Of a stretch of DNA of 26,154 bases, positions 1 to 16,310 are shown piece by piece. Position 1 is the stretch's first letter. Each line of letters opens with the position of its first letter. The notes under the pieces were generated by a model. The model searched no databases. It worked only from the letters and a program-made list of their open reading frames with translations, and was not told where the DNA came from. A program made the position numbers and the translations under genes. The DNA lies in IMG/VR virus record IMGVR_UViG_3300046047_000103. One strand, given 5' to 3'. This DNA comes from a virus (Duplodnaviria > Heunggongvirae > Uroviricota > Caudoviricetes).

Positions 1-229
1 CTGCTGGTGCTGCGTAAACTGGTCGCGGTACACGAATAACCAGATGATGTCCGGACTACTTGCCGGACAGACATGACAAGCAAGATGCTAACCACTGATT
101 GCTTCCAGCATTAAATTGACTGGATAATGGCGAGATGGTGAAAGCCCATCGAGTGGAGTTAAAACCCGCGGCTTAATTAACCGTGGGGATCAGGGAGACT
201 ATGAATCGATCTGTTCACGCCACGCTTAC

Positions 230-302
230 GCCCTTATAGCTCAGATGGTAGAGCAGCTGACTCTTAATCAGCGTGTCCGGGGTTCGAGCCCCCGTGAGGG
301 CA
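230..302 (+). tRNA. tRNA-Lys(CTT)
   Basis: Cloverleaf: acceptor GCCCTTA/TGAGGGC, anticodon arm GCTGA-CTCTTAA-TCAGC, TTCGAG T loop. Confidence 0.95.
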
Positions 303-350
303 CTTATGAGCATTGATAGCATTGTGGCGCATTGATGATCATATGATTAT

Positions 351-434
351 GGATGGTAGGCTGAGCGGTTAAGGCGCCTGTTCGCTAAACAGGTTCGTGT
401 CACAGCGTGGTGGGTTCGACTCCCGCATCATCCG
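351..434 (+). tRNA. tRNA-Ser(GCT), long variable arm, C33
   Basis: GGATGGT/ATCATCC-G; CCTGT-TCGCTAA-ACAGG; paralog of 7852-7935. Confidence 0.9.
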
Positions 435-557
435 CGGTCGGTAGGGGTTGTCCTCACTGGGCGATCAGCGACCTCATGAGCGCACGCATGGGATCAGTCA
501 CAGATCGTTGCAGTGCAGAACCCCTTCAGAAGATGGACTCCGTGAAGGTCCACGAAT

Positions 558-630
558 GCCGTCATAGCTCAGATGGTAGAGCGGCGAGCTGAAACCTCGC
601 AGGTCGCTGGTTCAAGTCCAGTTGTCGGCA
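558..630 (+). tRNA. tRNA-Phe(GAA)
   Basis: GCCGTCA/TGTCGGC-A; GCGAG-CTGAAAC-CTCGC. Confidence 0.93.
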
Positions 631-631
631 C

Positions 632-715
632 GGTGCGGCTGAGCGACGGTCGCTCAGGTGGCCGTAACCCACCCGTTCGTAATGAGCATTGCAGGTTCGA
701 ATCCTGTCCGCACCA
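632..715 (+). tRNA. tRNA-Tyr(GTA), long variable arm, C33, extended D stem
   Basis: GGTGCGG/CCGCACC-A; GGTGG-CCGTAAC-CCACC. Confidence 0.85.
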
Positions 716-739
716 CTCAGATCTGAAACAGATCTGTAT

Positions 740-810
740 GCGTCCATCGTATAATGGTAGTACTTGAGCTTCCAAACCTCATGATCTGGGTTCGATTCCT
801 AGTGGGCGTG
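740..810 (+). tRNA. tRNA-Trp(CCA), divergent (31-39 mismatch; Gly-TCC reading less likely)
   Basis: GCGTCCA/TGGGCGT-G resembles the acceptor of Trp at 3951; standard spacing gives loop TTCCAAA; G73. Confidence 0.7.
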
Positions 811-962
811 CGAGACCAAGCCGTGAGGTGAGGTCATGGTTGACTGCATGATCGCCTACAATGCGTGTGGCTAGACACTGAAGTCATGCAGACAGCGTCG
901 TCACTGGTATCGGCGGTGACGGCAACCGGTTCTCGTGTCCGGCTTACCAAAATACGACCAAT

Positions 963-1035
963 GGGGGCATGGCGCAGCTGGTAGCGCAACTCCTCAGCAA
1001 GGAGTAGGTCGCGGGTCCGAGTCCCGCTGCTTCCA
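963..1035 (+). tRNA. tRNA-Ala(AGC), A34, C33
   Basis: GGGGGCA/TGCTTCC-A with G3.U70; ACTCC-TCAGCAA-GGAGT; T loop TCCGAG. Confidence 0.88.
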
Positions 1036-1113
1036 CTTGGATCCATCAAGACAGGGCGGCGTCAGCAGCATGATGGATCCGCGACACGCCGGTGATTGAG
1101 ATCGGGCTGACTA

Positions 1114-1122
1114 TGTTACAAT
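1114..1122 (+). promoter_or_regulatory. Putative extended -10 promoter TGTTACAAT within the tRNA array
   Basis: TGn-TAnnnT match; TTGAGA at 1096-1101 with a short 15-nt spacer. Confidence 0.5.
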
Positions 1123-1262
1123 GGTATTGTCCACGAAAACGATGGATCACCCGAAGCCTGATAACCTAATCTAAGTCAATCATCTGGATCCATTGTCCAC
1201 AGCGTATGCTCAGGATGATGGCAGGATGTCAAAGTCCCCGCGATGACGATAAACCCGCGAAT

Positions 1263-1343
1263 GCCCCTATGGTAGGAATTGGTAGACACGGTCGACTTAA
1301 AATCGATTGCTTAGGCGTCCCGGTTCGAGTCCGGGTGGGGGTA
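1263..1343 (+). tRNA. tRNA-Leu(TAA), long variable arm
   Basis: GCCCCTA/TGGGGGT-A; GTCGA-CTTAAAA-TCGAT. Confidence 0.92.
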
Positions 1344-1346
1344 CAA

Positions 1347-1366
1347 GGTCGCGCCTAGGCGCGACC
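1347..1366. repeat. Perfect 20-bp palindrome GGTCGCGCCTAGGCGCGACC
   Basis: Read directly; 3 nt after tRNA-Leu. Confidence 0.85.
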
Positions 1367-1447
1367 GCTCATCGGATCCATGTGATTCGATGAGCATGCA
1401 GTACCGTGAGATGATGCGGGTTCGAGTCCGCCTGGCAATCATTAACG

Positions 1448-1536
1448 GTGACGGAGTTGATCTAGTAACTCAATGGCAGAAGCTACTCCATTTATTGTGG
1501 AAATGCGGGTTCGAATCCCGCCTAGTGATCCGTCAC
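1448..1536 (+). pseudogene. Degenerate tRNA-like unit closed by an extra 8-bp stem
   Basis: D-loop-like AACTCAATGGCAGAAG; perfect T arm GCGGG-TTCGAAT-CCCGC; broken acceptor; GTGACGGA/TCCGTCAC outer stem. Confidence 0.5.
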
Positions 1537-1615
1537 AGATGATGCTGTGCGTCAATGGCGCATTGGAATAGATTCAACATTCTAATGGGGCCAGTCATCC
1601 AGCGTCCGCATGAAT

Positions 1616-1689
1616 GCTTTCATAGCCCAATAGGTAGAGGCGATGGATTTAGGATCCATTCAGTGCTGGTTCGAGTCCAGTTGAAAGCA
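1616..1689 (+). tRNA. tRNA-Leu(TAG), short variable loop
   Basis: GCTTTCA/TGAAAGC-A; ATGGA-TTTAGGA-TCCAT. Confidence 0.9.
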
Positions 1690-1692
1690 CAA

Positions 1693-1780
1693 TGTCCGAA
1701 TCAACTTAACGGCAGAGCAGCGGCCGAAACGCCGTGCGCGGGTCATTCCCGGCCTGTAGGGTTCGACTCCCACCGGACAG
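1693..1780 (+). pseudogene. Atypical tRNA-like unit (6-bp acceptor, 6-nt anticodon loop CGAAAC, long variable arm)
   Basis: TGTCCG/CGGACA-G; GCGGC-CGAAAC-GCCGT; TTCGACT T loop with bulged stem. Confidence 0.55.
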
Positions 1781-1920
1781 GAGCTGTATGCAAGTGGTGA
1801 CGATCATGAGCATACGGTTCACAGCGTGGCGAAGATCTTGACGATGATCTTCATCACGCACGTTTGGCTCTATCATCGCTTGGCGATGATTGCAAGGTTC
1901 ATCCCAAGGAGCCAATTCAT

Positions 1921-1992
1921 GGCCGTGAGGTCCTACGGTTGGACGCCTGCCTGTCGAGCAGGTTGCAGCGGGTTCAACTCCCGTCATGGTCG
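1921..1992 (+). tRNA. tRNA-Asp(GTC)
   Basis: GGCCGTG/CATGGTC-G; CCTGC-CTGTCGA-GCAGG; near-copy at 5226. Confidence 0.92.
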
Positions 1993-2237
1993 CAAGGTGC
2001 CTGGTGTCTGCGCCGAGGATCAGCCCCTGGCTGATCCATGACACCCGGTGGAAACGGCATGGTGACATGAAAACAGCATGGATCCATGATACGCCCTCCG
2101 TCTGTTACTTTCCGTCGGTGATGCTGAGGCGGCGGGGTTAACGATCTGTATTGTAGCGGATCGCTGCCGGCACGACCACATGGTCTTGAATGGACATGAA
2201 GCATCTCACGTGACGTCCGTGAAGCGTCACTTAAATT

Positions 2238-2317
2238 GGTGCGTTGGCAGAGCGGCAAATGCGGCTGGCTGTAAACCAGCTCTTTCGGGTTCGGGGGTTC
2301 GAGTCCCTCACGCACCA
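2238..2317 (+). tRNA. tRNA-Tyr(GTA)
   Basis: GGTGCGT/ACGCACC-A; GCTGG-CTGTAAA-CCAGC; variable arm. Confidence 0.94.
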
Positions 2318-2462
2318 CACAACATGTTTGGATGGGTTAAAGGACACCAATGGCCCCATCCTGTTGACAGTGCTCACTGTCAACAGCGTGTGATCGTGCA
2401 GTGCAGGTGCCCAGTCGACCACTGCACGGGATAGTCCTCATGATGACGATAAAAGCATGAAT

Positions 2463-2533
2463 GCCTCTATAGTTCAAAGGAAGAACTTCGGACTTTTAAT
2501 CCGCAGATCGGATATCGTAATTCCGTGGGGGCA
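2463..2533 (+). tRNA. tRNA-Lys(TTT) with non-canonical T loop
   Basis: GCCTCTA/TGGGGGC-A; TCGGA-CTTTTAA-TCCGC; T arm CGGA-TATCGTAAT-TCCG lacks TTC. Confidence 0.7.
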
Positions 2534-2654
2534 CGATGGTCATGTGGATTGCAACTGCGTGATCACGACTCGAATCTGCAGATTCGGGAATATGGATGCA
2601 AGTGAGCACAAGCCGCTGGTTGTGGTTCGAATCCCGCTCCTCAATGGTTATACC

Positions 2655-2750
2655 GGCGAGGGCGCGCCAATCGGTAGAGCGGGCGGCTGAACTCAACTGC
2701 ATTCATCATGCAAGCATGTGGGGGTGTTCGACTCCCGCCTAGGGGCTCCA
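2655..2750 (+). pseudogene. tRNA remnant, identity undetermined
   Basis: D-loop-like CCAATCGGTAGAGCG and T-loop-like GTTCGACTCCC; acceptor and anticodon stems do not pair cleanly. Confidence 0.35.
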
Positions 2751-2817
2751 TCGTGAGAGCGGTGGACACGCCCTTGGTGGTCTAGGGGTCATGGCGCTTC
2801 ATATTGCTTGCACTTAT

Positions 2818-2891
2818 GCTTCCATAGCCCAACAGGTAGAGGCGCAGGCTTCAGGAGTCTGTCAGTGCCGGTTCGAATCCAGTTGGAAGCA
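2818..2891 (+). tRNA. tRNA-Leu(CAG), short variable loop
   Basis: GCTTCCA/TGGAAGC-A; CAGGC-TTCAGGA-GTCTG; paralog of 1616-1689. Confidence 0.88.
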
Positions 2892-3028
2892 CGGGCCACT
2901 AAAGATGTGAGTTCGCTCTGAAATCTAGCTAGATACATCAATTGACCAAGGATGGTAACGTTGCGGAGTCATGATCCGTATGACGCGGATGTCACACGAT
3001 GTTGGCATCATGCATCACCATTCGATAT

Positions 3029-3102
3029 GCTCTCATAGCCCAATGGATCAGAGCGCTTGTCTACGGAACAAGAGGGTGCGGGTTCGAGTCCCGCTGGGAG
3101 CA
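3029..3102 (+). tRNA. tRNA-Arg(ACG)
   Basis: GCTCTCA/TGGGAGC-A; CTTGT-CTACGGA-ACAAG. Confidence 0.95.
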
Positions 3103-3128
3103 CCGTGACCACATGGTGTGGTCATTAT

Positions 3129-3199
3129 TGCCCATTCGTCTAACGGCAGGACGAAGGTCTTTGGTACCTTTAAAGTTGGTTCGAATCCAGCATGGGCAG
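3129..3199 (+). tRNA. tRNA-Gln(TTG)
   Basis: TGCCCAT/ATGGGCA-G; AAGGT-CTTTGGT-ACCTT. Confidence 0.93.
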
Positions 3200-3200
3200 C

Positions 3201-3273
3201 GCTTCTCTGGCTCAATGGTTACAGCATCTGACTCTTAATCAGAGGATTGTGGGTTCGATCCCCACGGGGAGCA
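3201..3273 (+). tRNA. tRNA-Lys(CTT)
   Basis: GCTTCTC/GGGGAGC-A; TCTGA-CTCTTAA-TCAGA. Confidence 0.93.
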
Positions 3274-3276
3274 CTT

Positions 3277-3347
3277 GGGGACATTCTGGTGACAGATGTC
3301 TACCATAGGGGCGGCTATATACCATGGTTCAAATCCATGGCGCTCCA
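3277..3347 (+). pseudogene. Degenerate Ala-like tRNA unit or minihelix
   Basis: Perfect T arm CATGG-TTCAAAT-CCATG followed by GCGCTCC-A; no clean D or anticodon arm. Confidence 0.45.
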
Positions 3348-3389
3348 CGACGGATGATGTCAGATCTGCTCCACATCGTCCTCACGTAT

Positions 3390-3462
3390 TGCTTGATAGC
3401 GCAACTGGGAACGCGCTCCGCTCTGGACGGAGAGATTGCAGGTCCGAATCCTGCTCAAGCAG
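3390..3462 (+). tRNA. tRNA-Gln(CTG)
   Basis: TGCTTGA/TCAAGCA-G; CTCCG-CTCTGGA-CGGAG; T loop TCCGAA. Confidence 0.92.
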
Positions 3463-3550
3463 CTTCACAGGTTTGGTGGCTAGCGTCGGCGGGTTGATAC
3501 TGCCGACGCCCGTAGCGAGGGAGAGTCCTCGTGCAGATCTGTGGATTCTT

Positions 3551-3625
3551 GCCCTTGTAGCTCAGCGGATCAGAGCATCGGTCCTCGGAACCGAGTTGTC
3601 GCAGGTTCGAATCCTGTCAGGGGCA
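3551..3625 (+). tRNA. tRNA-Arg(TCG), C33
   Basis: GCCCTTG/CAGGGGC-A; TCGGT-CCTCGGA-ACCGA. Confidence 0.92.
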
Positions 3626-3710
3626 CTGGCGATGGTGCAGGCAGTGATGCTTGCGGATCGCCTGCAGCGTCACCGGGTCAGGGTGGGAACACAGCAGCCC
3701 AGCGCTGTTT

Positions 3711-3783
3711 GGGGTTGTAGCTCAGATGGTAGAGCGCTTCGTTCGCATCGAAGAGGTCGCGGGTTCGACTCCCGCTAATTCCA
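3711..3783 (+). tRNA. tRNA-Ala(CGC)
   Basis: GGGGTTG/TAATTCC-A with G3.U70; CTTCG-TTCGCAT-CGAAG. Confidence 0.93.
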
Positions 3784-3865
3784 CTGACCTTGGATCTGGT
3801 CTTACCATTGATGGGGCGCTTAGCTCCGTCATCTTCTGTACCTAGGCTGGTCCGAGTGTCTTCAT

Positions 3866-3948
3866 GGTGCGTTGGCAGAACGGCGAATGCAGTCGATCAT
3901 ACAGATCGGCATCTTCGGGATACGGGGGTTCGAGTCCCTCACGCACCG
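3866..3948 (+). tRNA. tRNA-Tyr-derived body with rewritten anticodon arm (identity undetermined)
   Basis: Acceptor and T arms identical, D arm nearly so, to 2238-2317; anticodon arm GTCGATC-ATACA-GATCGGC; G73. Confidence 0.7.
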
Positions 3949-3950
3949 CA

Positions 3951-4023
3951 TCGTCCGTGGCGTAAATGGTAGCGCAGCGGTCTCCAAAACCGCAGATTGC
4001 AGGTTCGAGTCCTGTCGGGCGTG
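3951..4023 (+). tRNA. tRNA-Trp(CCA)
   Basis: (T)CGTCCG/CGGGCG(T)-G; GCGGT-CTCCAAA-ACCGC. Confidence 0.93.
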
Positions 4024-4057
4024 CTATGACTGCAACCTGTAAAAAGGGTAGTCGTAT

Positions 4058-4129
4058 GCCGGTATAGCACAATGGTCAATGCTTCTGCTTAGTAAACAGA
4101 TGATGATGGTTCGATTCCATCTATCGGCT
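4058..4129 (+). tRNA. tRNA-Thr(AGT), A34
   Basis: GCCGGTA/TATCGGC-T; TCTGC-TTAGTAA-ACAGA. Confidence 0.88.
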
Positions 4130-4130
4130 C

Positions 4131-4204
4131 GTTCGCGTGGCGCAGTTGGTTAGCGCGCTTCCATGACACGGAAGAGGTCGCCTGTTCGAGTCAGGCCGTG
4201 AGCA
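4131..4204 (+). tRNA. tRNA-Val(GAC)
   Basis: GTTCGCG/CGTGAGC-A; CTTCC-ATGACAC-GGAAG. Confidence 0.93.
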
Positions 4205-4205
4205 C

Positions 4206-4278
4206 GCCTCCATAGCTCAGATGGTAGAGCGGCTCTCTCGTAAAGAGCAGGTCTCCGGTCCGATTCCGGATGGTGGCT
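4206..4278 (+). tRNA. tRNA-Thr(CGT)
   Basis: GCCTCCA/TGGTGGC-T; GCTCT-CTCGTAA-AGAGC; T loop TCCGAT. Confidence 0.92.
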
Positions 4279-4308
4279 CTAGTGGAACAGATCTGTATCC
4301 ACGATCAT

Positions 4309-4380
4309 GCGGGTATCGTACATCGGTAAGTACATCTTTCTGATGAGAAGAAAAGCGGAGTTCGACTCTCTGTACCCGTA
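4309..4380 (+). tRNA. tRNA-Ile(GAT), divergent (G37)
   Basis: GCGGGTA/TACCCGT-A; TCTTT-CTGATGA-GAAGA. Confidence 0.8.
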
Positions 4381-4404
4381 CTGGTGACAGACTGCTGTCA
4401 TCAT

Positions 4405-4477
4405 GGGGACGTAACTCAATTGGTAGAGTGCTTCCCTTGCAAGGAAGATGTAGCGAGTTCGAATCTCGTCGCCTCCA
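4405..4477 (+). tRNA. tRNA-Ala(TGC)
   Basis: GGGGACG/CGCCTCC-A with G3.U70; CTTCC-CTTGCAA-GGAAG. Confidence 0.94.
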
Positions 4478-4600
4478 CGGCGCCCGTTCAACGGGCTATG
4501 TCATTAGAAGCGTTCTAACGCGCATTAGACGTGAGACCATCATGAAGATGAGTGTTCATTCATCTTCATGGTTATCTCGCTTAGAACGCAATCTAAGCAT

Positions 4601-4672
4601 CCGGATGTAGTACAACGGTTAGTATAATTGTCTGATACACAATTGACGATAGTTCAACTCTATCCATCCGGA
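4601..4672 (+). tRNA. tRNA-Ile(GAT)
   Basis: CCGGATG/CATCCGG-A; ATTGT-CTGATAC-ACAAT. Confidence 0.88.
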
Positions 4673-4739
4673 CTATGGATCCATATGATGTGGACATGTG
4701 AGCAAGCATTGAGCCCGTCATGATGGATCCATTCTGCAT

Positions 4740-4813
4740 CGCTGCGTAGCTCAGTTGGTGAGAGCGTTCGACCCATAATCGAGAGGTCGGTGGTTCGAGT
4801 CCACCCGTAGTGA
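4740..4813 (+). tRNA. tRNA-Met or Ile2 (CAT), elongator type, C33
   Basis: CGCTGCG/CGTAGTG-A; TTCGA-CCCATAA-TCGAG; no initiator features. Confidence 0.88.
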
Positions 4814-4934
4814 CGATCCTGTTAGCATGACGACTGGTCATCTCATGCTGATGGGGTAAGAATGAGAGCAGCGTTGGATTGACCGATCCGCGTGGATTTG
4901 CGTCCGTTAGTGGCGTGATCCCCCATTCGATTAT

Positions 4935-5007
4935 GGTCCTATGGAGCAACGGTCACCTCGTCTGATTCTCAGTCAGAAGATTCCGGGTTCGATTCCCGGT
5001 GGGACTA
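4935..5007 (+). tRNA. tRNA-Glu(CTC)
   Basis: GGTCCTA/TGGGACT-A; TCTGA-TTCTCAG-TCAGA. Confidence 0.93.
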
Positions 5008-5225
5008 CGCAGCATTGAGTACATGTCCGGTTCAATGGGCACATCCAAATAGTCTCTCAGGATCAATGTGAGGATGGGTCAGATCATGATGGAAGTCCTG
5101 TAGATCGTGGTCATCATGCTGCACGCAACATACGGGTCTAGCGGTCCCGTCGGTGATCATTGCGAGCATTACAGCGCATCGTGCTCGCATGATCTTACAG
5201 ATCCTCCGTCAATGGATCTTATTAT

Positions 5226-5297
5226 GGCCTTGAGGTCCTCCGGTTGGACGCCTGCCTGTCGAGCAGGTTGCAGCGGGTTCGATTCCCGTCATGGTCG
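5226..5297 (+). tRNA. tRNA-Asp(GTC)
   Basis: Near-copy of 1921-1992; CCTGC-CTGTCGA-GCAGG. Confidence 0.92.
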
Positions 5298-5298
5298 C

Positions 5299-5369
5299 CG
5301 TGGTGTGGCCGAATGGTTAGGCGGCGGTCTGCAAAACCGTATAAGTCAGTTCGATTCTGATCACCACGT
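5299..5369 (+). tRNA. tRNA-Cys(GCA)
   Basis: CGTGGTG/CACCACG-T (U73); GCGGT-CTGCAAA-ACCGT. Confidence 0.94.
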
Positions 5370-5372
5370 CTT

Positions 5373-5686
5373 GAGTTCCGCTTGACGTCGCGCGTCTAAC
5401 AGGCGTGAGGAAATTCGGGGCATCATAGGGCAGGGGTGTGGATTAGACCACCGATCGTGAGATCAGCGATAGCGCCGCAGAGACCATACCGCCGATGGAT
5501 CCATACGGGTCACAGGCAAGGGTGAAAAGCGTGAGGTAAGAGCTCACGGGATAATCTTCGCGAGGAGATCCTTGGCAAGCCGACCCTGATGAAACCACAA
5601 GTCGTGCTGGGCGGCCCGTCCAATAGCACAGGTAGCGGGATCAGATGGATGGCGTCTTAGACAGAACTCCGGTTACGGTGGAACTC
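5373..5686 (+). ncRNA. rnpB: RNase P RNA (bacterial type A, compact)
   Basis: P1 GAGTTCCGC/GTGGAACTC; CR-I GAGGAAATTCGGGC; AGCGCCGCAGAGACCATACCGCC; AAGGGTGAAA; P15 loop GGTAAGAG; GGCAAGCC; CAGATGGATGG; CR-V ACAGAACTCCGGTTAC, all in canonical order. Confidence 0.93.
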
Positions 5687-5711
5687 ATGAACGATCTGCT
5701 CGACACTCCGG

Positions 5712-5740
5712 TTGTCAAGATGCTCGATCAGTGATATGAT
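5712..5740 (+). promoter_or_regulatory. SigA-type promoter TTGTCA-N17-TATGAT with extended TG
   Basis: -35 at 5712-5717, -10 at 5735-5740; upstream of tRNA-Arg(CCT). Confidence 0.7.
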
Positions 5741-5821
5741 GGATCATGTTGTTCCTGATGACAACAGAAGCTTGATAACAGGATAGTGATTGACCCGATG
5801 AAGTCAGTAAACTCATCATAT

Positions 5822-5895
5822 GCCCGCATAGCCCAATGGACTAGAGCGCCAGTTTCCTAAACTGTAGGTTGTCGGTTCGAATCCGACTGTGGGCA
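5822..5895 (+). tRNA. tRNA-Arg(CCT)
   Basis: GCCCGCA/TGTGGGC-A; CCAGT-TTCCTAA-ACTGT. Confidence 0.93.
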
Positions 5896-6068
5896 CTTGG
5901 ACACTCCGGTGAAGCTATCCTCATGTGAAGACGTAGGGGCTTGACAGGGGCTGGTGGAGTGGACAATCGTGTAGGCAATGCGGTTAAGCGTCGTCAATGG
6001 TCGCAAAGTAGGCGGAAGCGTTGACAAGCATGCCGATCCCAGCAGGATGGCGCCATCTTGCTGGTTAC

Positions 6069-6142
6069 GCCTCGGTAGTCTAATGGATCAAAACGCCACT
6101 CCTCTAAAGTGGATAGTATGGGTTCGAATCCCATTCGAGGCA
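6069..6142 (+). tRNA. tRNA-Arg(TCT), C33
   Basis: GCCTCGG/TCGAGGC-A; CCACT-CCTCTAA-AGTGG. Confidence 0.9.
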
Positions 6143-6143
6143 C

Positions 6144-6218
6144 GTGGACTATGGCTCAATGGTAGAGCGACGGATTGTGGCTCCGTAGGTGCGGGTTCGA
6201 TTCCCGCTAGCCCAACCA
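6144..6218 (+). tRNA. tRNA-His(GTG), G-1, A73, encoded CCA
   Basis: G-TGGACTA/TAGCCCA-A-CCA; ACGGA-TTGTGGC-TCCGT. Confidence 0.92.
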
Positions 6219-6259
6219 CCGATGAGAATGTCAACAGATGTTGACAAGAATCATCGTAT

Positions 6260-6334
6260 GGCCCCGCGGTGTGCTTGGTCTGCGCATACGTGACTTTCAA
6301 TCACATGGTGACGGTTCGAGTCCGTCCGGGGCTA
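6260..6334 (+). tRNA. tRNA-Glu(TTC)
   Basis: GGCCCCG/CGGGGCT-A; CGTGA-CTTTCAA-TCACA. Confidence 0.88.
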
Positions 6335-6363
6335 CCCTCCATGAGACATGGATGAACGATCTT

Positions 6364-6434
6364 GCCCCATTGTCGCCGGTTGCGCAACGATATCTTATAA
6401 ACATTGTAAGAGGGTTCAACTCCTTCATGGGGTA
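6364..6434 (+). tRNA. Probable tRNA-Ile(TAT), weak D and anticodon stems
   Basis: GCCCCAT/ATGGGGT-A; GATAT-CTTATAA-ACATT; T arm GAGGG-TTCAACT-CCTTC. Confidence 0.65.
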
Positions 6435-6599
6435 CTTGTCGGGGAATGGCATAGTCTCCAGCGCACGTCATCCTAGGTGGCGTGGTCAACTGGCGGCAAG
6501 CGCCAGCAGATCTGATCTGTCGCTTCCCGTAAGAACAGCTCCTCTCCCCGACCACATCGTGATATCTTGTACACGACATTGGTATCATGGTGCTTGCAT

Positions 6600-6670
6600 G
6601 CGGATGTAGCCCAATGGTAAGGCGTCAGTCTTCCAAACTGATTACGCGGGTCCGATTCCCGTCATCCGCT
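6600..6670 (+). tRNA. tRNA-Gly(TCC)
   Basis: GCGGATG/CATCCGC-T; TCAGT-CTTCCAA-ACTGA; T loop TCCGAT. Confidence 0.94.
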
Positions 6671-6826
6671 CTGAAGGCCAACAGCTCCTGGACTAGCGAT
6701 CCGAGAGTTGCATAAACGGTGTGGTAGTCTGTTGGCCTGTAACACGCGCTGCGTCTCATGTGCCGGCAAGCGCCGTCACGCAGGCTATATCGGACACTCA
6801 CGTGGTGAGACAGGGTGTCCACCAAT

Positions 6827-6899
6827 GCGGACATGGTCTAGCTGGTAAGACGCGACCTTCCCAAGGTTGAGATCGCGGGTTCGAGCCCCGTTGTCCGCT
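6827..6899 (+). tRNA. tRNA-Gly(CCC)
   Basis: GCGGACA/TGTCCGC-T; CGACC-TTCCCAA-GGTTG. Confidence 0.95.
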
Positions 6900-7026
6900 C
6901 GATCGTCATTGCGGTAATGGCTGGCCGGGCAGTAATGGCGTTGATACCCGGAACTGCGCTCCTTGTGGATTCGATTGTATCCACGCAGGGTTAGGCGATC
7001 ACGATGGAGCTTGTCGCCGCCATTAT

Positions 7027-7099
7027 GCTTCCGTAGCTCAGATGGCAGAGCGCCTCGGTCACATCGAGGATGTCGATGGTTCAAGTCCATTCGGAAGCA
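7027..7099 (+). tRNA. tRNA-Val(CAC)
   Basis: GCTTCCG/CGGAAGC-A; CCTCG-GTCACAT-CGAGG. Confidence 0.93.
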
Positions 7100-7100
7100 C

Positions 7101-7177
7101 TGCGGGGTCGAGTAGCAATTCGGTAGCTCTCGTGGCTCATACCCACGGTGTTGCAGGTTCAAATCCTGCCCCCGCTA
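7101..7177 (+). tRNA. tRNA-Met(CAT), initiator-like
   Basis: TGCGGGG/CCCCGCT-A with 1-72 mismatch; CGTGG-CTCATAC-CCACG has only two of the three initiator G-C pairs. Confidence 0.85.
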
Positions 7178-7218
7178 CTAAGATCTGCGCTCATGAACGC
7201 AGATCTGCATGCAGTCTT

Positions 7219-7294
7219 GCTCCTGTAGCCCAGTCCGGCCCAAGGCGTCTGCCTTACACGCAGAAGATCCATGGTTCGAATCCATGTGGGAGCA
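7219..7294 (+). tRNA. tRNA-Val(TAC)
   Basis: GCTCCTG/TGGGAGC-A; TCTGC-CTTACAC-GCAGA. Confidence 0.93.
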
Positions 7295-7438
7295 CGGCGG
7301 AACCTACTTGCAAGAGTCATCGTGCTGATAGTTCCCGAACGGGAGTAAGACGAGTGCAGGGAATGCCCTGGACTCGTCGAGAATTCAATGGTCGACTGGT
7401 TCCTTTCGCAATGCTGGCATTCAAGCATTGCACTCAAT

Positions 7439-7511
7439 GCGGACATAGCTTAGTTGGTAAAGCGCGACCTTGCCAAGGTCGAGACCGCGGGTTCAAGTCC
7501 CGTTGTCCGCT
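7439..7511 (+). tRNA. tRNA-Gly(GCC)
   Basis: GCGGACA/TGTCCGC-T; CGACC-TTGCCAA-GGTCG. Confidence 0.95.
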
Positions 7512-7515
7512 CTTC

Positions 7516-7588
7516 GCCTTGTTAGCTCAGATGGTAGAGCGGCCGCCTTGTAAGCGGCAGGTCTCCGGTTCAAGCCCGGAACATGGCT
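7516..7588 (+). tRNA. tRNA-Thr(TGT)
   Basis: GCCTTGT/ACATGGC-T; GCCGC-CTTGTAA-GCGGC. Confidence 0.93.
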
Positions 7589-7589
7589 C

Positions 7590-7674
7590 GGATGATTCGC
7601 ATAGTGGTCGAGTGCACTTGTCTAGAAAACAAGAGTGGGTCACACCGCCGGGGGTTCGAATCCCTCATCATCCG
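7590..7674 (+). tRNA. tRNA-Ser(AGA), A34, long variable arm
   Basis: GGATGAT/ATCATCC-G; CTTGT-CTAGAAA-ACAAG. Confidence 0.92.
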
Positions 7675-7851
7675 CTATTGATGATGGATAGATCGGTCTT
7701 CAACGATCTTATCAGCAGTCAAGAAACATGATAGCAGGGATTGAAGATACTTGCTGTCATGGATCGTGGTGGACACGCCCTGGTGCATAGCCAGGAACAC
7801 GATCTAGTCAGGGTGGCTCCATGCCATCACTGACAGCGCCATGATCATTAT

Positions 7852-7935
7852 GGATGGTAGGCTGAGCGGTTAAAGCGCCTCACTGCTAATGAGGTTCGGG
7901 TAACACCGTGGCGGGTTCGACTCCCGCATCATCCG
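7852..7935 (+). tRNA. tRNA-Ser(GCT)
   Basis: GGATGGT/ATCATCC-G; CCTCA-CTGCTAA-TGAGG. Confidence 0.94.
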
Positions 7936-8190
7936 CAAGATCATGCCGGCAGTGATGTGGACATGATCCCTCCGCCGCAGGGGAACTGGGGAGCCGTGTG
8001 GGATCCCCGACTGCGGTCATGTCGGCTCTGCCCACAGACTGCCGGCATCGTGGAGATCCCTGGTCGCGCAGGTCAAGACGCGCCGTGGAGGCTGGCCGTG
8101 CTCCACGATCATCAAAAACCAGGCGGATATGCTAAACAGAGCTAATAGGAATCTGGGAACCATGCTGTCTGCATGTGAGACAGCATGTAT

Positions 8191-8276
8191 GGAGAGTGTG
8201 ATCTATTGGTAAGGTCGACCCGCTTCGAATACGGGCGCCGGTAATACGGTTAGGGGTTCGATTCCCTTACTCTCCG
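8191..8276 (+). tRNA. tRNA-Ser(CGA)
   Basis: GGAGAGT/ACTCTCC-G; CCCGC-TTCGAAT-ACGGG; variable arm. Confidence 0.9.
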
Positions 8277-8291
8277 CAATCATTGTCACGG

Positions 8292-9221
8292 TCATACCAT
8301 CGTCGGTATGAAACCGATCTGGAAGATCTGCTGTCGTCCTCCCATGTTCAATATGACAGCTCTCCCCCTTGGCCTAGCCGGGAGATCATACCTCGGGTTC
8401 TCCGAGAACAAATCCCTGAATGCTTTCCAATTCTGATGTCCGCAATAGATCTTCGTCATAGAGTTCGATACGATCTCACGACCAGAAGTACTGATCGTAT
8501 CAAGATAGCCAGTGATCATGAAGACATAGATGCCGGCGCTCCTGCACAGCCTGACCAGATAGTTGATAGTGTCAGTCATGAGCGAGATCTTCTCTGCCGC
8601 ATGGACAGTTCCCATTCTAGACGGGCTCAGCGTGGAGACCCCTCCGAGCAGCCAGTCAGCTGGATCAATAATGATCCATTCAGTCTTCCTCGACGATAAG
8701 ATCTTCTCCTCGCCCTCAGCGTCACCAACCGTGTTAGCAAGCTGCTTGTACGTGTCATTCATCTCAACCCTCAGACGAGTGATGAGATCATACGCCTCAT
8801 CTATGCTCCGGGCCACACGGTCACCTTGACGAAGATTCTTCTGGACTCCATTAAGATCAATGACGTTCAGTCTGATCCCATCATGACGGAGTCCGTGCTC
8901 GATGATCGTCCTCATAAGAACGGTCTTACCGCTTCCTGTTCCTCCGGATACGATCACACTGGGATTCTTGTTAAGATCGAGGATCACATCCTTACCGCCC
9001 TCTCCAGCACCTATGCGGACAGTTGAGCGCGGATCGTCATCATCGTTCCTGGAGTCGGTATCGATCGGCTTGTATATGAGCTCGTTGGGGAGATCGGGGT
9101 CTGGAGCACTGACCCCAAGTTGCTTCAGATTGGAGTCAAGGGTCTTCCATGTCGGGGTTCCCGGATTCACCGTGACGAGGAACGGCTTGCCGTTAAGCGC
9201 TTCATCCCTACTTGACAACAA
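8292..9221 (-). CDS. FtsK/SpoIIIE-like P-loop ATPase domain protein
   Basis: 309 aa; DLNKNPSVIVSGGTGSGKT Walker A, NVIDLNG, IIIDP at the Walker B position, CRSAGIYV; TTG start uncertain. Confidence 0.75.
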   Translation of the reverse strand: MLSSRDEALNGKPFLVTVNPGTPTWKTLDSNLKQLGVSAPDPDLPNELIYKPIDTDSRNDDDDPRSTVRIGAGEGGKDVILDLNKNPSVIVSGGTGSGKTVLMRTIIEHGLRHDGIRLNVIDLNGVQKNLRQGDRVARSIDEAYDLITRLRVEMNDTYKQLANTVGDAEGEEKILSSRKTEWIIIDPADWLLGGVSTLSPSRMGTVHAAEKISLMTDTINYLVRLCRSAGIYVFMITGYLDTISTSGREIVSNSMTKIYCGHQNWKAFRDLFSENPRYDLPARPRGRAVILNMGGRQQIFQIGFIPTMV

Positions 9222-9377
9222 TATGGATCCATCAGATCTGTAATCATACTGAATGTTAAGATCATTAGTCGTTTTCTTATTCCTTATTCCATTGTAAACG
9301 TTAGATACCTGTTTTTCTTGTTATTTATGTTACCGTCGTGATAATGATTAACGAGTTGCCTTTATAATGATCTTGAA

Positions 9378-9386
9378 TGGTATAAT
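9378..9386 (+). promoter_or_regulatory. Extended -10 promoter TGGTATAAT upstream of tnpB
   Basis: Consensus TATAAT with TG; AAGGGG SD-like sequence before GTG 9418. Confidence 0.65.
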
Positions 9387-9417
9387 ATTCATTATCATAG
9401 TCAAGGGGTGAATAACC

Positions 9418-11040
9418 GTGAGGAAGAGCAAGATCATCAGCATGGCGCTGAGCCTTAACCTGAGCGATGCTATCATTACCCCGTCACCCGGGAAGCGGCA
9501 GCCAAGCGTTACGGAATGGCCACCTTACATCATGAGCACCCTACAGACTCAGACGAGGGATCAGAATAAGATCATAAGGCTTAACAAGGGCTTGGATCCT
9601 GATGACATGACTACTGGTCTCAAGTACTCGGATCCCCTCATCCGCAAGAACATGATCATCCCGTCCAGCGTCAAGGAGAGCAGGGCGAGCGCATGGTTGA
9701 ACACGGCATGGAGTCTGATTAACGACCAGTTAGAGTCATGGCGCTTACTCGCTCCATGGGCTCAACGATCCAGGCTCTTTGACGAAATCCGCGAGGGACC
9801 GAGCCTCGGGTTCAAGGACTTCAGGAGGAAGCACGGGTACGAGTACCTGGACTACCAGCTCTGGTCTAACGTGCAGAGAATGAAGAGTAAGCCAGGACTC
9901 CCCGTCGTGAAGTCAGCGAGAATCTCGTACTCCAAGATGGGAGTACAGTGCTCCGGGGCGCCATGGTACGATAGTAAGACTGGAGTCTTGCACTGGGAAT
10001 GCGTGAACATCGGTCAAGCGCGCCTAGACTTCTCATGGCACGCTCCGTGGATTCGTGCACGATACCCTCGCAGGTCCCTTCAGACCGGACGGATCAGCCG
10101 AGGAACGGTCCAGGCCGTACCCATGACTAGCCACTCATTCAGCGTGGGGTACGGGGAGGACGCGAGCGGTAAGATCCGTGCTAGCATCTCTCGTGAGAAT
10201 AACCGAGTAACATTCAGCCCGGCGACGGATGACGTACGATTCACCTTCACGATTAAGGCTACTCGGCCATCGATACGCAAGCGTGTTAAGGCGGTTGCCG
10301 GGTTTGATATCGGGATGGAGTCGCACGCGGTGATAGCCGGCCGGCGCGTGAGCCTGAACGGCGGAACGAGCAGGCCGCTCACGCTGAGCCGGGAGGGATT
10401 ATCCCTCCAGCGTCACATCATCTCGCTCCAGCTAAAAGAACGGGAGGCTCTCGCGAAGCTCTCGAGGATCATGCAGGATCATGAGCCTGTGGCGAACCCG
10501 AGGCTCGTGGAGGGTGCTATCCATCTTCACGAGAAGCTGGAGGCGCTGAAGGCCGCGATGGACTGGGTCGCCGCGGACTCAGCCGTGAAGCACTGCCGTC
10601 CGGGTGACGTGCTCGTAATGGAGGAGCTCTCATGGTCTGGCGGTGGCGCGGTGAAGTTCCGTCACGGCCGGCAGCAGGCTCGTGTCCAGCACCTCGCCGC
10701 TAGGCGCGGTTTCAGGATGGTTAGGGTGAACCCTGCCGGATCTAGTCACGAGTGTCCATCATGCCACGCCGCGTACGATGCGGATCCGAGGAGTCACGCC
10801 TTCAAGTGCAGCTCTTGCGGGTACGCGGGGGATAAGGATGACGCGGCCGGTTTTATCATCGCACTCCGCGGCTTGGAGAAGCTCCGCAAGAATAACAATT
10901 ACGGGTTGAGCGCCGTGGTACAGACGGTCCGCTCTCGTCGTCCAAGAGGCGACGGTTATGCCCATGCTAGTAACCAGGGTCACCGCGAACGAGCATGCTC
11001 GGTAACGGCGGCGGGTCTAACCAAGAATAACGGTTACTAG
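9418..11040 (+). CDS. tnpB: TnpB/Cas12f-like RuvC RNA-guided nuclease (no adjacent TnpA)
   Basis: 540 aa; RuvC-I AGFDIG, RuvC-II VMEELS, VNPAGSS-ECPSC...CSSC zinc finger, RuvC-III DKDDAA. Confidence 0.85.
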   Translation: MRKSKIISMALSLNLSDAIITPSPGKRQPSVTEWPPYIMSTLQTQTRDQNKIIRLNKGLDPDDMTTGLKYSDPLIRKNMIIPSSVKESRASAWLNTAWSLINDQLESWRLLAPWAQRSRLFDEIREGPSLGFKDFRRKHGYEYLDYQLWSNVQRMKSKPGLPVVKSARISYSKMGVQCSGAPWYDSKTGVLHWECVNIGQARLDFSWHAPWIRARYPRRSLQTGRISRGTVQAVPMTSHSFSVGYGEDASGKIRASISRENNRVTFSPATDDVRFTFTIKATRPSIRKRVKAVAGFDIGMESHAVIAGRRVSLNGGTSRPLTLSREGLSLQRHIISLQLKEREALAKLSRIMQDHEPVANPRLVEGAIHLHEKLEALKAAMDWVAADSAVKHCRPGDVLVMEELSWSGGGAVKFRHGRQQARVQHLAARRGFRMVRVNPAGSSHECPSCHAAYDADPRSHAFKCSSCGYAGDKDDAAGFIIALRGLEKLRKNNNYGLSAVVQTVRSRRPRGDGYAHASNQGHRERACSVTAAGLTKNNGY

Positions 11041-11044
11041 CAAC
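10887..11044 (+). ncRNA. Putative omega RNA scaffold overlapping the tnpB 3' end
   Basis: 11-bp stem TGCTAGTAACC (10965-10975)/GGTTACTAGCA (11032-11042); hairpin 10937-10953; position typical of TnpB omega RNAs; boundaries inferred. Confidence 0.5.
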
Positions 11045-11171
11045 TGTCATTGTGATAGCCTTATGATCATACGATGGTAAGATATGTCTTCAACGGGAAT
11101 GATCTTGTCATGGCGTGACGTTATAATTGCTGTATGTTCCAAATGGTACAGATTTTCTATCAACGGTAAGC

Positions 11172-11693
11172 ATGGATGGGTCGATCGTGTCTGATAAGAA
11201 GCATCGGTATGGAAAGAACAGTAAGATGAGAGCGTATTACGATTCTGTCATCAGCGACTTCAACGATGATTCCGATGAGTCGTATCTGGCAGAAGCCTAT
11301 GAGAACATGCTGATGGATCAGGGTGCTAGTAGCCCCGATGACATCCTCGGAACCATGGACTACTATGAGTATGACAACGGTGAGGACATTGTCCACATCG
11401 TGACGGATGAGGTCGGGGAAGATGATGCTAAACGAGCAATGGTGCTGTACTCCGCGACGAAGGACGGTGGCTCCCCGATCTATGGACTGAGTGACGATGA
11501 GATCAATGATGTTCTCACCGATGACGACAAGTTCGAGGAAGCGTATAAGGAATTGGAAGACGCAGGGATCGTCACCGAGAAGGAATATGAGGACGAAGAT
11601 GCGATTAATAAGTTCATTGATGACAATTGGGATTACATCGGGCCGTCATACGATTCAAGCGATGGTCTTGGAACGTATCATCAGCGGGTATGA
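11172..11693 (+). CDS. Highly acidic hypothetical protein
   Basis: ORF 11127-11693; ATG 11172 preferred because the TTG at 11127 overlaps a TATAAT box; about one quarter Asp/Glu. Confidence 0.75.
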   Translation: MDGSIVSDKKHRYGKNSKMRAYYDSVISDFNDDSDESYLAEAYENMLMDQGASSPDDILGTMDYYEYDNGEDIVHIVTDEVGEDDAKRAMVLYSATKDGGSPIYGLSDDEINDVLTDDDKFEEAYKELEDAGIVTEKEYEDEDAINKFIDDNWDYIGPSYDSSDGLGTYHQRV

Positions 11694-11845
11694 TGAAGAC
11701 TGATGGTTCTGAATTCATGGATTGCCGGCACCGGGCGCTGACAGATCTATAGCCCCATCTTTGGTACCATTGCCGTCATGTATGTTTCGATTGATGCGAT
11801 GACGGGTGACCATATCGTCATCAAGATCTTGAAGGAGAAGAGCTG

Positions 11846-12370
11846 ATGCTGGCTAAGCCGAGGAATGGATGGACAGCCCTTGAGACCACGGTTGAGGGCA
11901 AGCCGGTGACGATCGGTCCAATCAGCTACCTGTCTGACGCGCCGGTCATGCTGGCAGAGGCATTCTGGGCGCGGTTCATCGAGGAAGAGCCATTGAACGT
12001 GACGTTCGAGTCAGAGTCTGAAGGATATGTAGATCTGGTTGAGATCGACGATTGCATCTTCGCTATGAAGCATTTTGATCAGAAGGATCCGGACATCCAT
12101 GGGACCCTCATCGGATTCTCTGATATGATACCCGATCTTGCCAGTGAGCTCATTGTGGACATCACTGAGAACATTGACGGCTGGGCCTTGTTCGAAGAGC
12201 TGGGATCTGCAGATCTGGATGAGATCGGTGAACGATCTGCGGAATCTGAACAAGAACGGCGCCGTATCGCCCTGGACGACTGGTGCACTGAGCTGTCCGA
12301 CGTTCTTACCAAGTTCAAGATCGTTGACTCGAAGTTCAACCATGACGTCAGACGGCGCGCACGATGCTGA
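11846..12370 (+). CDS. Acidic hypothetical protein
   Basis: 174-aa ORF; GGAG SD; TGGTACCAT extended -10 at 11762-11770. Confidence 0.75.
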   Translation: MLAKPRNGWTALETTVEGKPVTIGPISYLSDAPVMLAEAFWARFIEEEPLNVTFESESEGYVDLVEIDDCIFAMKHFDQKDPDIHGTLIGFSDMIPDLASELIVDITENIDGWALFEELGSADLDEIGERSAESEQERRRIALDDWCTELSDVLTKFKIVDSKFNHDVRRRARC

Positions 12371-16278: not shown

Positions 16279-16310
16279 TCATCATGATCACTCTTTGATA
16301 TCTTCGTCAT

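What the first reader, a model, noticed from the sequence alone, without database searches (positions are those of the whole stretch)
230..8276. Strict processing code: AT leaders, universal C74 and single-C tandem linkers
By manual count, all 44 assignable tRNAs have C right after the discriminator, but only His encodes full CCA. Eight tandem pairs are separated by exactly one C (631, 3200, 4130, 4205, 5298, 6143, 7100, 7589). Of the other 36 genes, 32 have T at -1 and 27 have AT at -2/-1. Established: bacterial RNase P prefers U at -1, and its L15 loop pairs with the 3' RCCA; CCA-adding enzymes can complete N73-C ends. Inference: in the tandem pairs one RNase P cut makes the 5' end of the downstream tRNA and leaves an N73-C end on the upstream one, ready for CA addition without 3' trimming. 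This would suit the encoded ribozyme.
Basis: partly seen in the sequence, partly recalled or inferred. Interest (0 to 1): 0.75.

Follow-up and report, generated by a model that had tools for sequence, protein, structure and literature searches.

The report
Huge-phage tRNA array processing flanks
A 350-kb phage of an actinobacterium carries 51 tRNA genes with very regular flanks (U-A-U before, one C after), but the single C is the ordinary rule of actinobacterial tRNA genes and the A-U leader is the known best RNase P substrate, so this is a tidy case of known processing rules, not a new code.

Summary
All 44 tRNA genes in the window have C at position 74, as do all 51 in the full array, which starts about 2 kb upstream. 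Only His encodes CCA. Seven pairs are joined by exactly one C. An eighth, Arg-His, is C plus the G-1 of His. Among the other 36 genes, 31-32 have T at -1 and 27-28 have AT.

A related 420-kb phage (G001) shows the same pattern: 49/50 C74, no CCA, and no G at -2.

C74 is not special to the phage. It occurs in 143/144 tRNA genes sampled from 33 Actinomycetota genomes, only 51 of which encode CCA, and in 30/30 genes of mycobacteriophage Bxz1. Published mapping in Streptomyces coelicolor places the 3' cut right after C74.

The AU leader is phage-enriched (65% against 13% in the sampled Actinomycetota, whose relation to the true host is unknown). It matches the published kinetic optimum of bacterial RNase P.

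Single-C dimers are the classic T4 arrangement; T4 itself has Gln-C-Leu.

Both phages encode an RNase P RNA with the L15 GGU motif and an actinobacterial-type CCA-adding enzyme.

This scan noted similar punctuation before on other DNA (e1-1848745, a rumen jumbo phage).

The parts
230..8277 (+). 44 tRNA genes: the window's part of a 51-gene array covering all 20 amino acids. Seven more genes lie up to 2 kb upstream of the window.
   Evidence: ARAGORN; Rfam tRNA hits; amino-acid coverage
5372..5691 (+). Type A RNase P RNA inside the array, 2 nt after tRNA-Cys. Lacks P18. L15 keeps A-GGU-A.
   Evidence: Rfam RF00010, 166.5 bits against a cut-off of 100, with alignment; conserved in G001
631..631 (+). 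Single-C linker Phe-C-Tyr
3200..3200 (+). Single-C linker Gln(ttg)-C-Lys(ctt)
4130..4130 (+). Single-C linker Thr(agt)-C-Val(gac)
4205..4205 (+). Single-C linker Val(gac)-C-Thr(cgt); makes a Thr-Val-Thr trimer
5298..5298 (+). Single-C linker Asp-C-Cys
6143..6144 (+). Linker C-G between Arg(tct) and His. It is a single C only if G6144 is the G-1 of tRNA-His.
7100..7100 (+). Single-C linker Val(cac)-C-Met (initiator-like, with a 1:72 mismatch)
7589..7589 (+). Single-C linker Thr(tgt)-C-Ser(aga). The same junction is present in G001.
6216..6218 (+). The only encoded CCA (tRNA-His, A73)
3949..3950 (+). 2-nt linker CA between the Tyr-like 'Val(tac)' and Trp
7512..7515 (+). 4-nt linker CTTC between Gly(gcc) and Thr(tgt)

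Best explanation
The window holds most of a 51-gene tRNA array of a roughly 350-kb phage that infects an actinobacterium. Its gene flanks follow two known rules.

(1) The 3' rule is that of the host phylum. Actinobacterial tRNA genes template N73-C74, usually without CA. The precursor is cut right after C74, and the CCA-adding enzyme adds C75-A76. Here that enzyme is phage-encoded as well.

(2) The 5' rule is the RNase P optimum. The leaders read U(-3)A(-2)U(-1) with no G at -2, which is the fastest class of substrates for bacterial RNase P. It also avoids pairing between the leader and C74. The phage carries its own type A RNase P RNA with the C74/C75-binding GGU loop.

Where two genes abut, the spacer has shrunk to the one base that both rules allow, C74. 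A single cut before +1 of the downstream tRNA then yields a mature 5' end and an N73-C-OH upstream end that needs only CA. That cut could come from RNase P, or from the enzyme that cuts after C74, because the two sites coincide.

Shown here: the sequence pattern, its conservation, its presence or absence in the comparison genomes, and the presence of the two phage genes. Inferred: co-transcription, which enzyme cuts, and that the linker C is kept.
For: Flank pattern in the phages:
- C74 occurs in 51/51 genes of the own array and 49/50 in G001, with 1 and 0 encoded CCA respectively.
- Flank information is confined to positions -3..-1 and 74. Other flank positions are near random and differ between the two phages.

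Comparison genomes:
- Actinomycetota: C74 in 97/97 genes from 5 genomes and 46/47 from 28 more. Among genes without CCA, 92/93 have C74.
- Mycobacteriophage Bxz1: C74 in 30/30 genes, 5 with CCA.

Published 3' processing:
- In S. coelicolor, most CCA-encoding tRNAs are cut between the two Cs. Table S4 also shows cuts right after C74 in CCA-less genes, such as GCAC|gc (PMC4681348).
- Chloroplast precedent: genes templating C74, a cut after C74, and the rest added by nucleotidyltransferase (PMC3161902).

Leaders:
- AT at -2/-1 in 52/80 non-tandem phage genes against 19/144 in the Actinomycetota genomes (p = 3e-15). G at -2 in 0/80 against 38/144.
- A(-2) and U(-3) are the optimum for the E. coli RNase P holoenzyme, and A(-2) for P RNA alone. 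Pairing of the leader with the 3' end is an anti-determinant (PMC5602109).
- Only 15 of 87 E. coli precursors have the optimal A(-2)U(-1) (PMC9433436).

Phage-encoded machinery:
- RNase P RNA scores 166.5 bits and has AGGUA in L15 in both phages. G292/G293 pair with C75/C74 (PMC1874595).
- CCA-adding enzyme of type TIGR02692 scores 549 bits (own phage) and 527 bits (G001) against a cut-off of 438.8. The ER...E motif is invariant. It sits 4 kb upstream of the window, next to IF3.

Tandem junctions:
- Partners mostly differ between the two phages, yet every linker starts with C. The one exception is a 0-nt junction where C1 follows N73.
- T4 has Gln-C-Leu.
Against: - No RNA data for this phage exist in the runs offered, so no end, cut or co-transcription was seen.
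- The enzyme that cuts after C74 is not identified. Strong RNase Z homologues are present in the Streptomyces and Cellulosimicrobium genomes. They are absent from the Gardnerella and Bifidobacterium genomes, which still have 100% C74.
- The true host is unknown, so its own leaders could also be AU-rich.
- Another phage with its own RNase P RNA (G007) has ordinary leaders (AT 9/32) and encoded CCA. The ribozyme therefore does not by itself predict these flanks.
- RNase P leader optima were measured with the E. coli enzyme, not an actinobacterial or phage one.
- In tandem pairs the -2/-1 bases are N73-C, not the AU optimum.
Confidence: 0.7

Rival explanations
1. One reading: C74 is kept mainly because the phage-encoded RNase P ribozyme needs it. 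It pairs with the L15 G, so the flanks form a recognition code matched to the element's own ribozyme.
For: Both phage RNase P RNAs keep GGU in L15. The C74-G293 pair is the functionally critical one in type A and type B enzymes (PMC1874595). No G occurs at -2 that could sequester C74.
Against: C74 is equally universal in cellular Actinomycetota and in phage Bxz1, which have no phage ribozyme. The mapped cut after C74 in S. coelicolor gives a more direct reason. The ribozyme-bearing phage G007 simply encodes CCA. The two roles are not exclusive.
Confidence: 0.3
2. The flank regularities are a copying artefact. tRNA genes spread in the array by duplication together with a few flanking bases, with no selection on the flanks.
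For: Some genes are clear paralogues, such as the two Ser-gct, two Lys-ctt and two Ile-gat genes.
Against: Information content is about 1-2 bits at -2, -1 and 74 and about 0-0.3 bits at the neighbouring positions. Different tRNA families share the flanks. The pattern persists in a phage whose proteins are only about 60-66% identical and whose gene order differs.
Confidence: 0.05
3. The AT leader serves something other than RNase P, for example a phage or host endonuclease site or a promoter or initiation element placed before each gene.
For: RNase P kinetics were not measured for this system. A(-2)T(-1)G(+1) is a fixed trinucleotide in most genes.
Against: No excess of promoter-like or terminator-like sites over shuffles. 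The signal is only 2-3 nt wide and ends exactly at the RNase P cleavage site. It matches the published RNase P optimum, including U(-3) and avoidance of G(-2). The same TAT leader is frequent in an unrelated cyanobacterial plasmid array, with AT in 12/21 genes.
Confidence: 0.08

Closest known systems
Phage T4 tRNA cluster: dimeric precursors Gln-Leu, Pro-Ser and Thr-Ile, resolved by RNase P with CCA completed by nucleotidyltransferase (my own knowledge of the 1970s-80s McClain/Abelson work; the sequence was checked here)
   Same: Adjacent same-strand tRNA genes separated by one C (T4 Gln-C-Leu). The upstream member lacks CCA. One RNase P cut makes both ends. A phage array.
   Different: T4 has 8 genes, 4 of them with CCA, uses host RNase P and host CCA enzyme, and has a proteobacterial host. 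Here there are 51 genes, 1 with CCA, and the phage has its own RNase P RNA and CCA-adding enzyme.
Actinobacterial chromosomal tRNA genes and their 3' processing (S. coelicolor dRNA-seq, PMC4681348; M. tuberculosis CCA-adding enzyme, PMC10673834; CCA templating survey, PMC5143459)
   Same: N73-C74 is templated in essentially every gene, and CCA in a minority. The cut has been mapped after C74. The CCA-adding enzyme belongs to the same equivalog family.
   Different: Chromosomal genes are dispersed and have ordinary leaders (AT 13%, G(-2) 26%). About a third encode CCA, whereas the phage encodes it in 1 of 51 genes.
Mycobacteriophage Bxz1 tRNA cluster
   Same: Actinophage array with C74 in 30/30 genes, few with CCA, short linkers including one single-C pair, and an annotated nucleotidyltransferase gene.
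   Different: Leaders are not AU-optimised (AT 6/24, G(-2) 4/24). No RNase P RNA has been reported for it, and I did not search for one.
Chloroplast tRNA genes templating C74, with tRNase Z cutting after C74 (PMC3161902, citing Oommen et al. 1992)
   Same: Partial CCA (C only) in the gene, a cut after C74, and CA added afterwards.
   Different: An organelle system. The enzyme is a Thermotoga maritima (TM)-type tRNase Z, whereas the enzyme here is unknown.
Rumen jumbo-phage tRNA array noted earlier in this scan (e1-1848745)
   Same: CCA-less array with C-(T/G)-A after each tRNA and T-A-T before the next. It was read as an RNase P preference.
   Different: A different phage and habitat. I did not re-examine it.

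Membership tests
T4-type tandem (dimeric) tRNA precursors resolved by RNase P | Same-strand tRNA genes separated by 0 to a few nt | tested here: met
   7 one-nt linkers plus CG, CA and CTTC linkers
T4-type tandem (dimeric) tRNA precursors resolved by RNase P | Upstream member lacks encoded CCA and needs nucleotidyltransferase | tested here: met
   All upstream members end N73-C. A CCA-adding enzyme is encoded by the phage.
T4-type tandem (dimeric) tRNA precursors resolved by RNase P | Co-transcription, and RNase P cleavage generating the upstream 3' end | not testable with these tools
   No RNA run holds this phage
Actinobacterial C74-templating tRNA genes | C at position 74 in essentially all genes, CCA in a minority | tested here: met
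   51/51 C74 with 1 CCA, against 143/144 C74 and 51 CCA in Actinomycetota
Actinobacterial C74-templating tRNA genes | 3' cut immediately after C74 | not testable with these tools
   Shown for S. coelicolor in the literature only
Optimal bacterial RNase P substrates | A(-2)U(-1), U(-3), and no leader pairing with the 3' end (no G at -2) | tested here: met
   Own array, 41 non-tandem genes: A(-2) in 34, U(-1) in 36, G(-2) in 0, and U(-3) in 19.
Bacterial RNase P RNA, type A (RF00010) | Covariance-model score above the gathering cut-off, and an L15 GGU motif | tested here: met
   166.5 bits against 100; AGGUA aligned to the model's GGGUA
RNase P holoenzyme encoded by the phage | RnpA protein gene (PF00825) | tested here: not met
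   No hit in the complete relative G001. The own genome could not be searched in full.
CCA tRNA nucleotidyltransferase, actinobacterial type (TIGR02692) | Equivalog score above cut-off; head, RNA-binding and HD domains; ER...E motif of CCA-adding enzymes | tested here: met
   549 bits against 438.8; domains; E215, R216 and E220 invariant; motif meaning from PMC10673834
Phage-encoded RNase Z | RNase Z equivalog score | tested here: not met
   The only metallo-beta-lactamase (MBL) fold protein in G001 scores 43-47 bits against cut-offs of 252-293, and resembles Apyc1 just below its cut-off

The most novel reading that the evidence does not exclude
The 51 tRNAs, the RNase P RNA, the CCA-adding/repair enzyme (with HD domain) and the adjacent IF3 may form a self-contained tRNA supply line. 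Its precursors would be tuned (UAU leaders, no G at -2) to outcompete host precursors for RNase P. This would keep phage translation running when the host shuts down or attacks its tRNA pool, for example through acceptor-end nucleotidyltransferase toxins of the MenT type or anticodon nucleases. Under this reading the flank regularity is a competitive or counter-defence adaptation, not mere tidiness.
Probability: 0.15. Interest if true: 0.65.

Novelty: new member of a known kind. Interest (0 to 1): 0.33.

Why it matters
It turns a seemingly private code into three testable, known rules, and it gives a practical marker. Near-universal C74 without CCA, together with an actinobacterial-type CCA enzyme, points to an Actinomycetota host for an uncultured huge phage.

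It also shows from genomes (143/144 genes in 33 genomes) that templated C74 looks like a phylum-wide rule in Actinomycetota. That fits the published cut after C74 in Streptomyces. I did not find the rule stated explicitly in the papers I searched.

The array is an unusually clean natural set of optimal RNase P substrates sitting beside a compact phage RNase P RNA. That makes it useful for enzymology.

Tried and rejected
- **Close DNA relatives.** Megablast of 1-12000 against the phage and plasmid collections gave only universal tRNA fragments. tblastn of the VirD4-like protein against cultured phages gave no match.
- **Own genome.** It is not held. I reached 15.5 kb upstream through the look-up of encoding contigs.
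- **More arrays via relatives.** Relatives found through the VirD4-like protein (L171-L173) and a 489-kb phage with the IF3 + CCA-enzyme pair (L013) have no tRNA genes within 10 kb, so they added no arrays.
- **RNA evidence.** No RNA holder is listed for the phage. The RNA runs listed hold only small shares of words, so I did not lay reads.
- **His and CCA.** I considered that His keeps CCA in both phages because RNase P needs it to leave G-1. I rejected this: in G001, His has C73 followed by CAA and T at -1.
- **Ribozyme and leaders.** I considered that phages with their own RNase P RNA always have AU leaders and C-only ends. I rejected this: G007 has encoded CCA and ordinary leaders.
- **RNase Z and C74.** I considered RNase Z as the universal cause of C74. 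This is not supported, because the two Bifidobacteriaceae genomes lack a clear RNase Z.
- **Promoters and terminators.** The scan shows no excess over shuffles.


Full report
**What is there.** ARAGORN finds 44 tRNA genes on the + strand between 230 and 8277. Rfam finds 40 of them, plus a type A RNase P RNA at 5372-5691 (166.5 bits against a cut-off of 100).

The window is part of JGI contig Ga0455797_000015 (349,703 bp), with window position 1 at record position 63,910. Adding the upstream 15.5 kb shows that the array has 51 genes covering all 20 amino acids. Earlier notes of this scan call the contig a huge phage, probably of an actinobacterium. The samples are bioreactor sludge.

**Check of the observation.** I took the discriminator from the ARAGORN bracket structures; the Rfam hits end at the same base. 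Position 74 is C in 44/44 window genes and 51/51 array genes. The chance of 44/44 is about 4e-27.

Only His encodes CCA (6216-6218). The eight named linker bases are all C. Seven are true one-base linkers. The eighth is C6143 plus G6144, which is a single C only if G6144 is the G-1 of His.

Of the remaining 36 genes, 31 have T at -1 and 27 have AT. These become 32 and 28 with a 7-bp reading of Glu-ttc. The binomial p-values are 4e-15 and 5e-24. Flank information sits only at -3..-1 and at 74. C is depleted at position 75, occurring in 3/41 genes.

**Conservation.** A complete 419,707-bp relative (G001) has a VirD4-like protein 66% identical to the window's. It carries a 50-gene array with its own RNase P RNA. 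In that array C74 occurs in 49/50 genes and none encodes CCA. Among its 39 non-tandem genes, T(-1) occurs in 31, A(-2) in 28 and G(-2) in 0. It has six single-C pairs.

The tandem partners mostly differ between the two phages; only Thr-C-Ser is identical. The junctions therefore arose repeatedly, each time keeping C74.

**Is it special to the phage?** For C74 it is not.
- In five Actinomycetota genomes (Gardnerella, Bifidobacterium, Cellulosimicrobium, Pimelobacter, Streptomyces), 97/97 tRNA genes have C74 and only 23 encode CCA.
- In 28 further genomes drawn evenly from the phylum, 46/47 have C74.
- Among all genes without CCA, 92/93 have C74.
- Mycobacteriophage Bxz1 has 30/30.

The rule is not universal in bacteria. 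Some B. subtilis CCA-less genes have U74 (PMC1874595), T4 has 6/8, and a Nostoc plasmid array has 20/24.

The reason for the rule is suggested by published end-mapping in S. coelicolor. Most CCA-encoding tRNAs are cut between the two Cs, and CCA-less ones are cut right after C74 (PMC4681348, text and Table S4). A chloroplast precedent exists (PMC3161902).

The nuclease is not settled. Near-cut-off RNase Z homologues occur in two of my five genomes, but not in the two Bifidobacteriaceae.

**The leader.** AT at -2/-1 occurs in 52/80 non-tandem genes of the two phages, against 19/144 in the Actinomycetota genomes (p = 3e-15) and 6/24 in Bxz1. G(-2) occurs in 0/80 against 38/144. The relation of these genomes to the true host is unknown.

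This matches high-throughput kinetics of E. coli RNase P. A(-2) and U(-3) are optimal for the holoenzyme, and A(-2) for the RNA alone. Pairing between the leader and the 3' end is an anti-determinant (PMC5602109). Only 15 of 87 E. coli precursors carry the optimal A(-2)U(-1) (PMC9433436). The array is thus an unusually optimised substrate set.

Both phage ribozymes keep the L15 GGU that pairs with C74/C75, and they keep adenosines in J5/15. No RnpA gene is present in G001. The RNA presumably uses the host protein; this is an inference.

**The rest of the machinery.** An actinobacterial-type CCA-adding enzyme is encoded 4 kb upstream of the window, next to IF3. It belongs to TIGR02692 and has head, RNA-binding and HD domains and the ER...E motif. 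The same gene pair occurs in G001 and in a third, 489-kb phage. Its nearest cellular relatives, at about 50% identity, are all Actinomycetes. G001 has no convincing RNase Z.

**Mechanism.** Inferred steps:
- The array is transcribed as long precursors, since no excess of terminators is seen.
- RNase P cuts at each +1 site.
- 3' ends are cut after C74 by a host enzyme.
- The phage or host CCA enzyme adds CA.

In single-C pairs the RNase P site and the after-C74 site are the same phosphodiester bond. One cut therefore finishes both neighbours. This would explain why spacers collapse to exactly one C. It is the T4 dimer pathway; T4 itself has Gln-C-Leu.

**Verdict.** This is a very regular new member of known kinds. 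The scan has already noted comparable C...TAT punctuation in another jumbo phage (e1-1848745).

Noticed in passing
window 3645-3734 (+): Near-threshold match to bacterial small SRP (4.5S) RNA: 38.6 bits against a cut-off of 40, E = 1e-5 over 7.7 kb. It carries the domain IV core GGUCAGGG..GGAA..CAGCAGCC, in the spacer just before tRNA-Ala(cgc). The 3' end of the alignment runs into the tRNA. There is no such hit in G001 or G007. It may be a phage mini-4.5S RNA released by the RNase P cut.
   Followed up: partly
window 3866-3949 (+): ARAGORN's 'tRNA-Val(tac)' has the acceptor stem and long variable arm of the phage's tRNA-Tyr (2238-2318) but a UAC anticodon, and it has no Rfam tRNA hit. It may be a pseudogene or a re-coded Tyr-like tRNA.
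   Followed up: partly
window 6144-6218 (+): tRNA-His has an encoded G at -1 but A73 (no G-1:C73 pair), an A4·C69 mismatch, and the only encoded CCA. The G001 orthologue instead has G1-C72, C73, T at -1 and no CCA.
   Followed up: partly
L182/L194 (IMGVR_UViG_3300029911_000001, 231 kb) and L181: A different huge phage also carries a type A RNase P RNA (179.6 bits) inside a tRNA cluster. Its 32 tRNA genes nearly all encode CCA (30/32). Phage-borne RNase P RNA therefore occurs in at least two unrelated lineages. I found no paper on it with the terms I tried.
   Followed up: partly
L010:9452-11446 (4-6 kb upstream of the window); L005; L013: The gene pair of translation initiation factor IF3 and CCA-adding enzyme is syntenic in three huge phages of 350, 420 and 489 kb.
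   Followed up: no
Actinomycetota genomes G002-G037 (loci L095-L226): Templated C74 appears to be a phylum-wide rule, in 143/144 genes. C75 is uncommon unless the full CCA is present, occurring in 13/93 CCA-less genes. Gardnerella and Bifidobacterium keep the rule without a clear RNase Z.
   Followed up: partly
window 9418-11040 (+): A 540-aa ORF with a Cas12f1-like/TnpB TNB domain sits directly after the tRNA array. VirB11-like and VirD4/TraG-like ATPases lie at 15091-18839 in a phage context.
   Followed up: no
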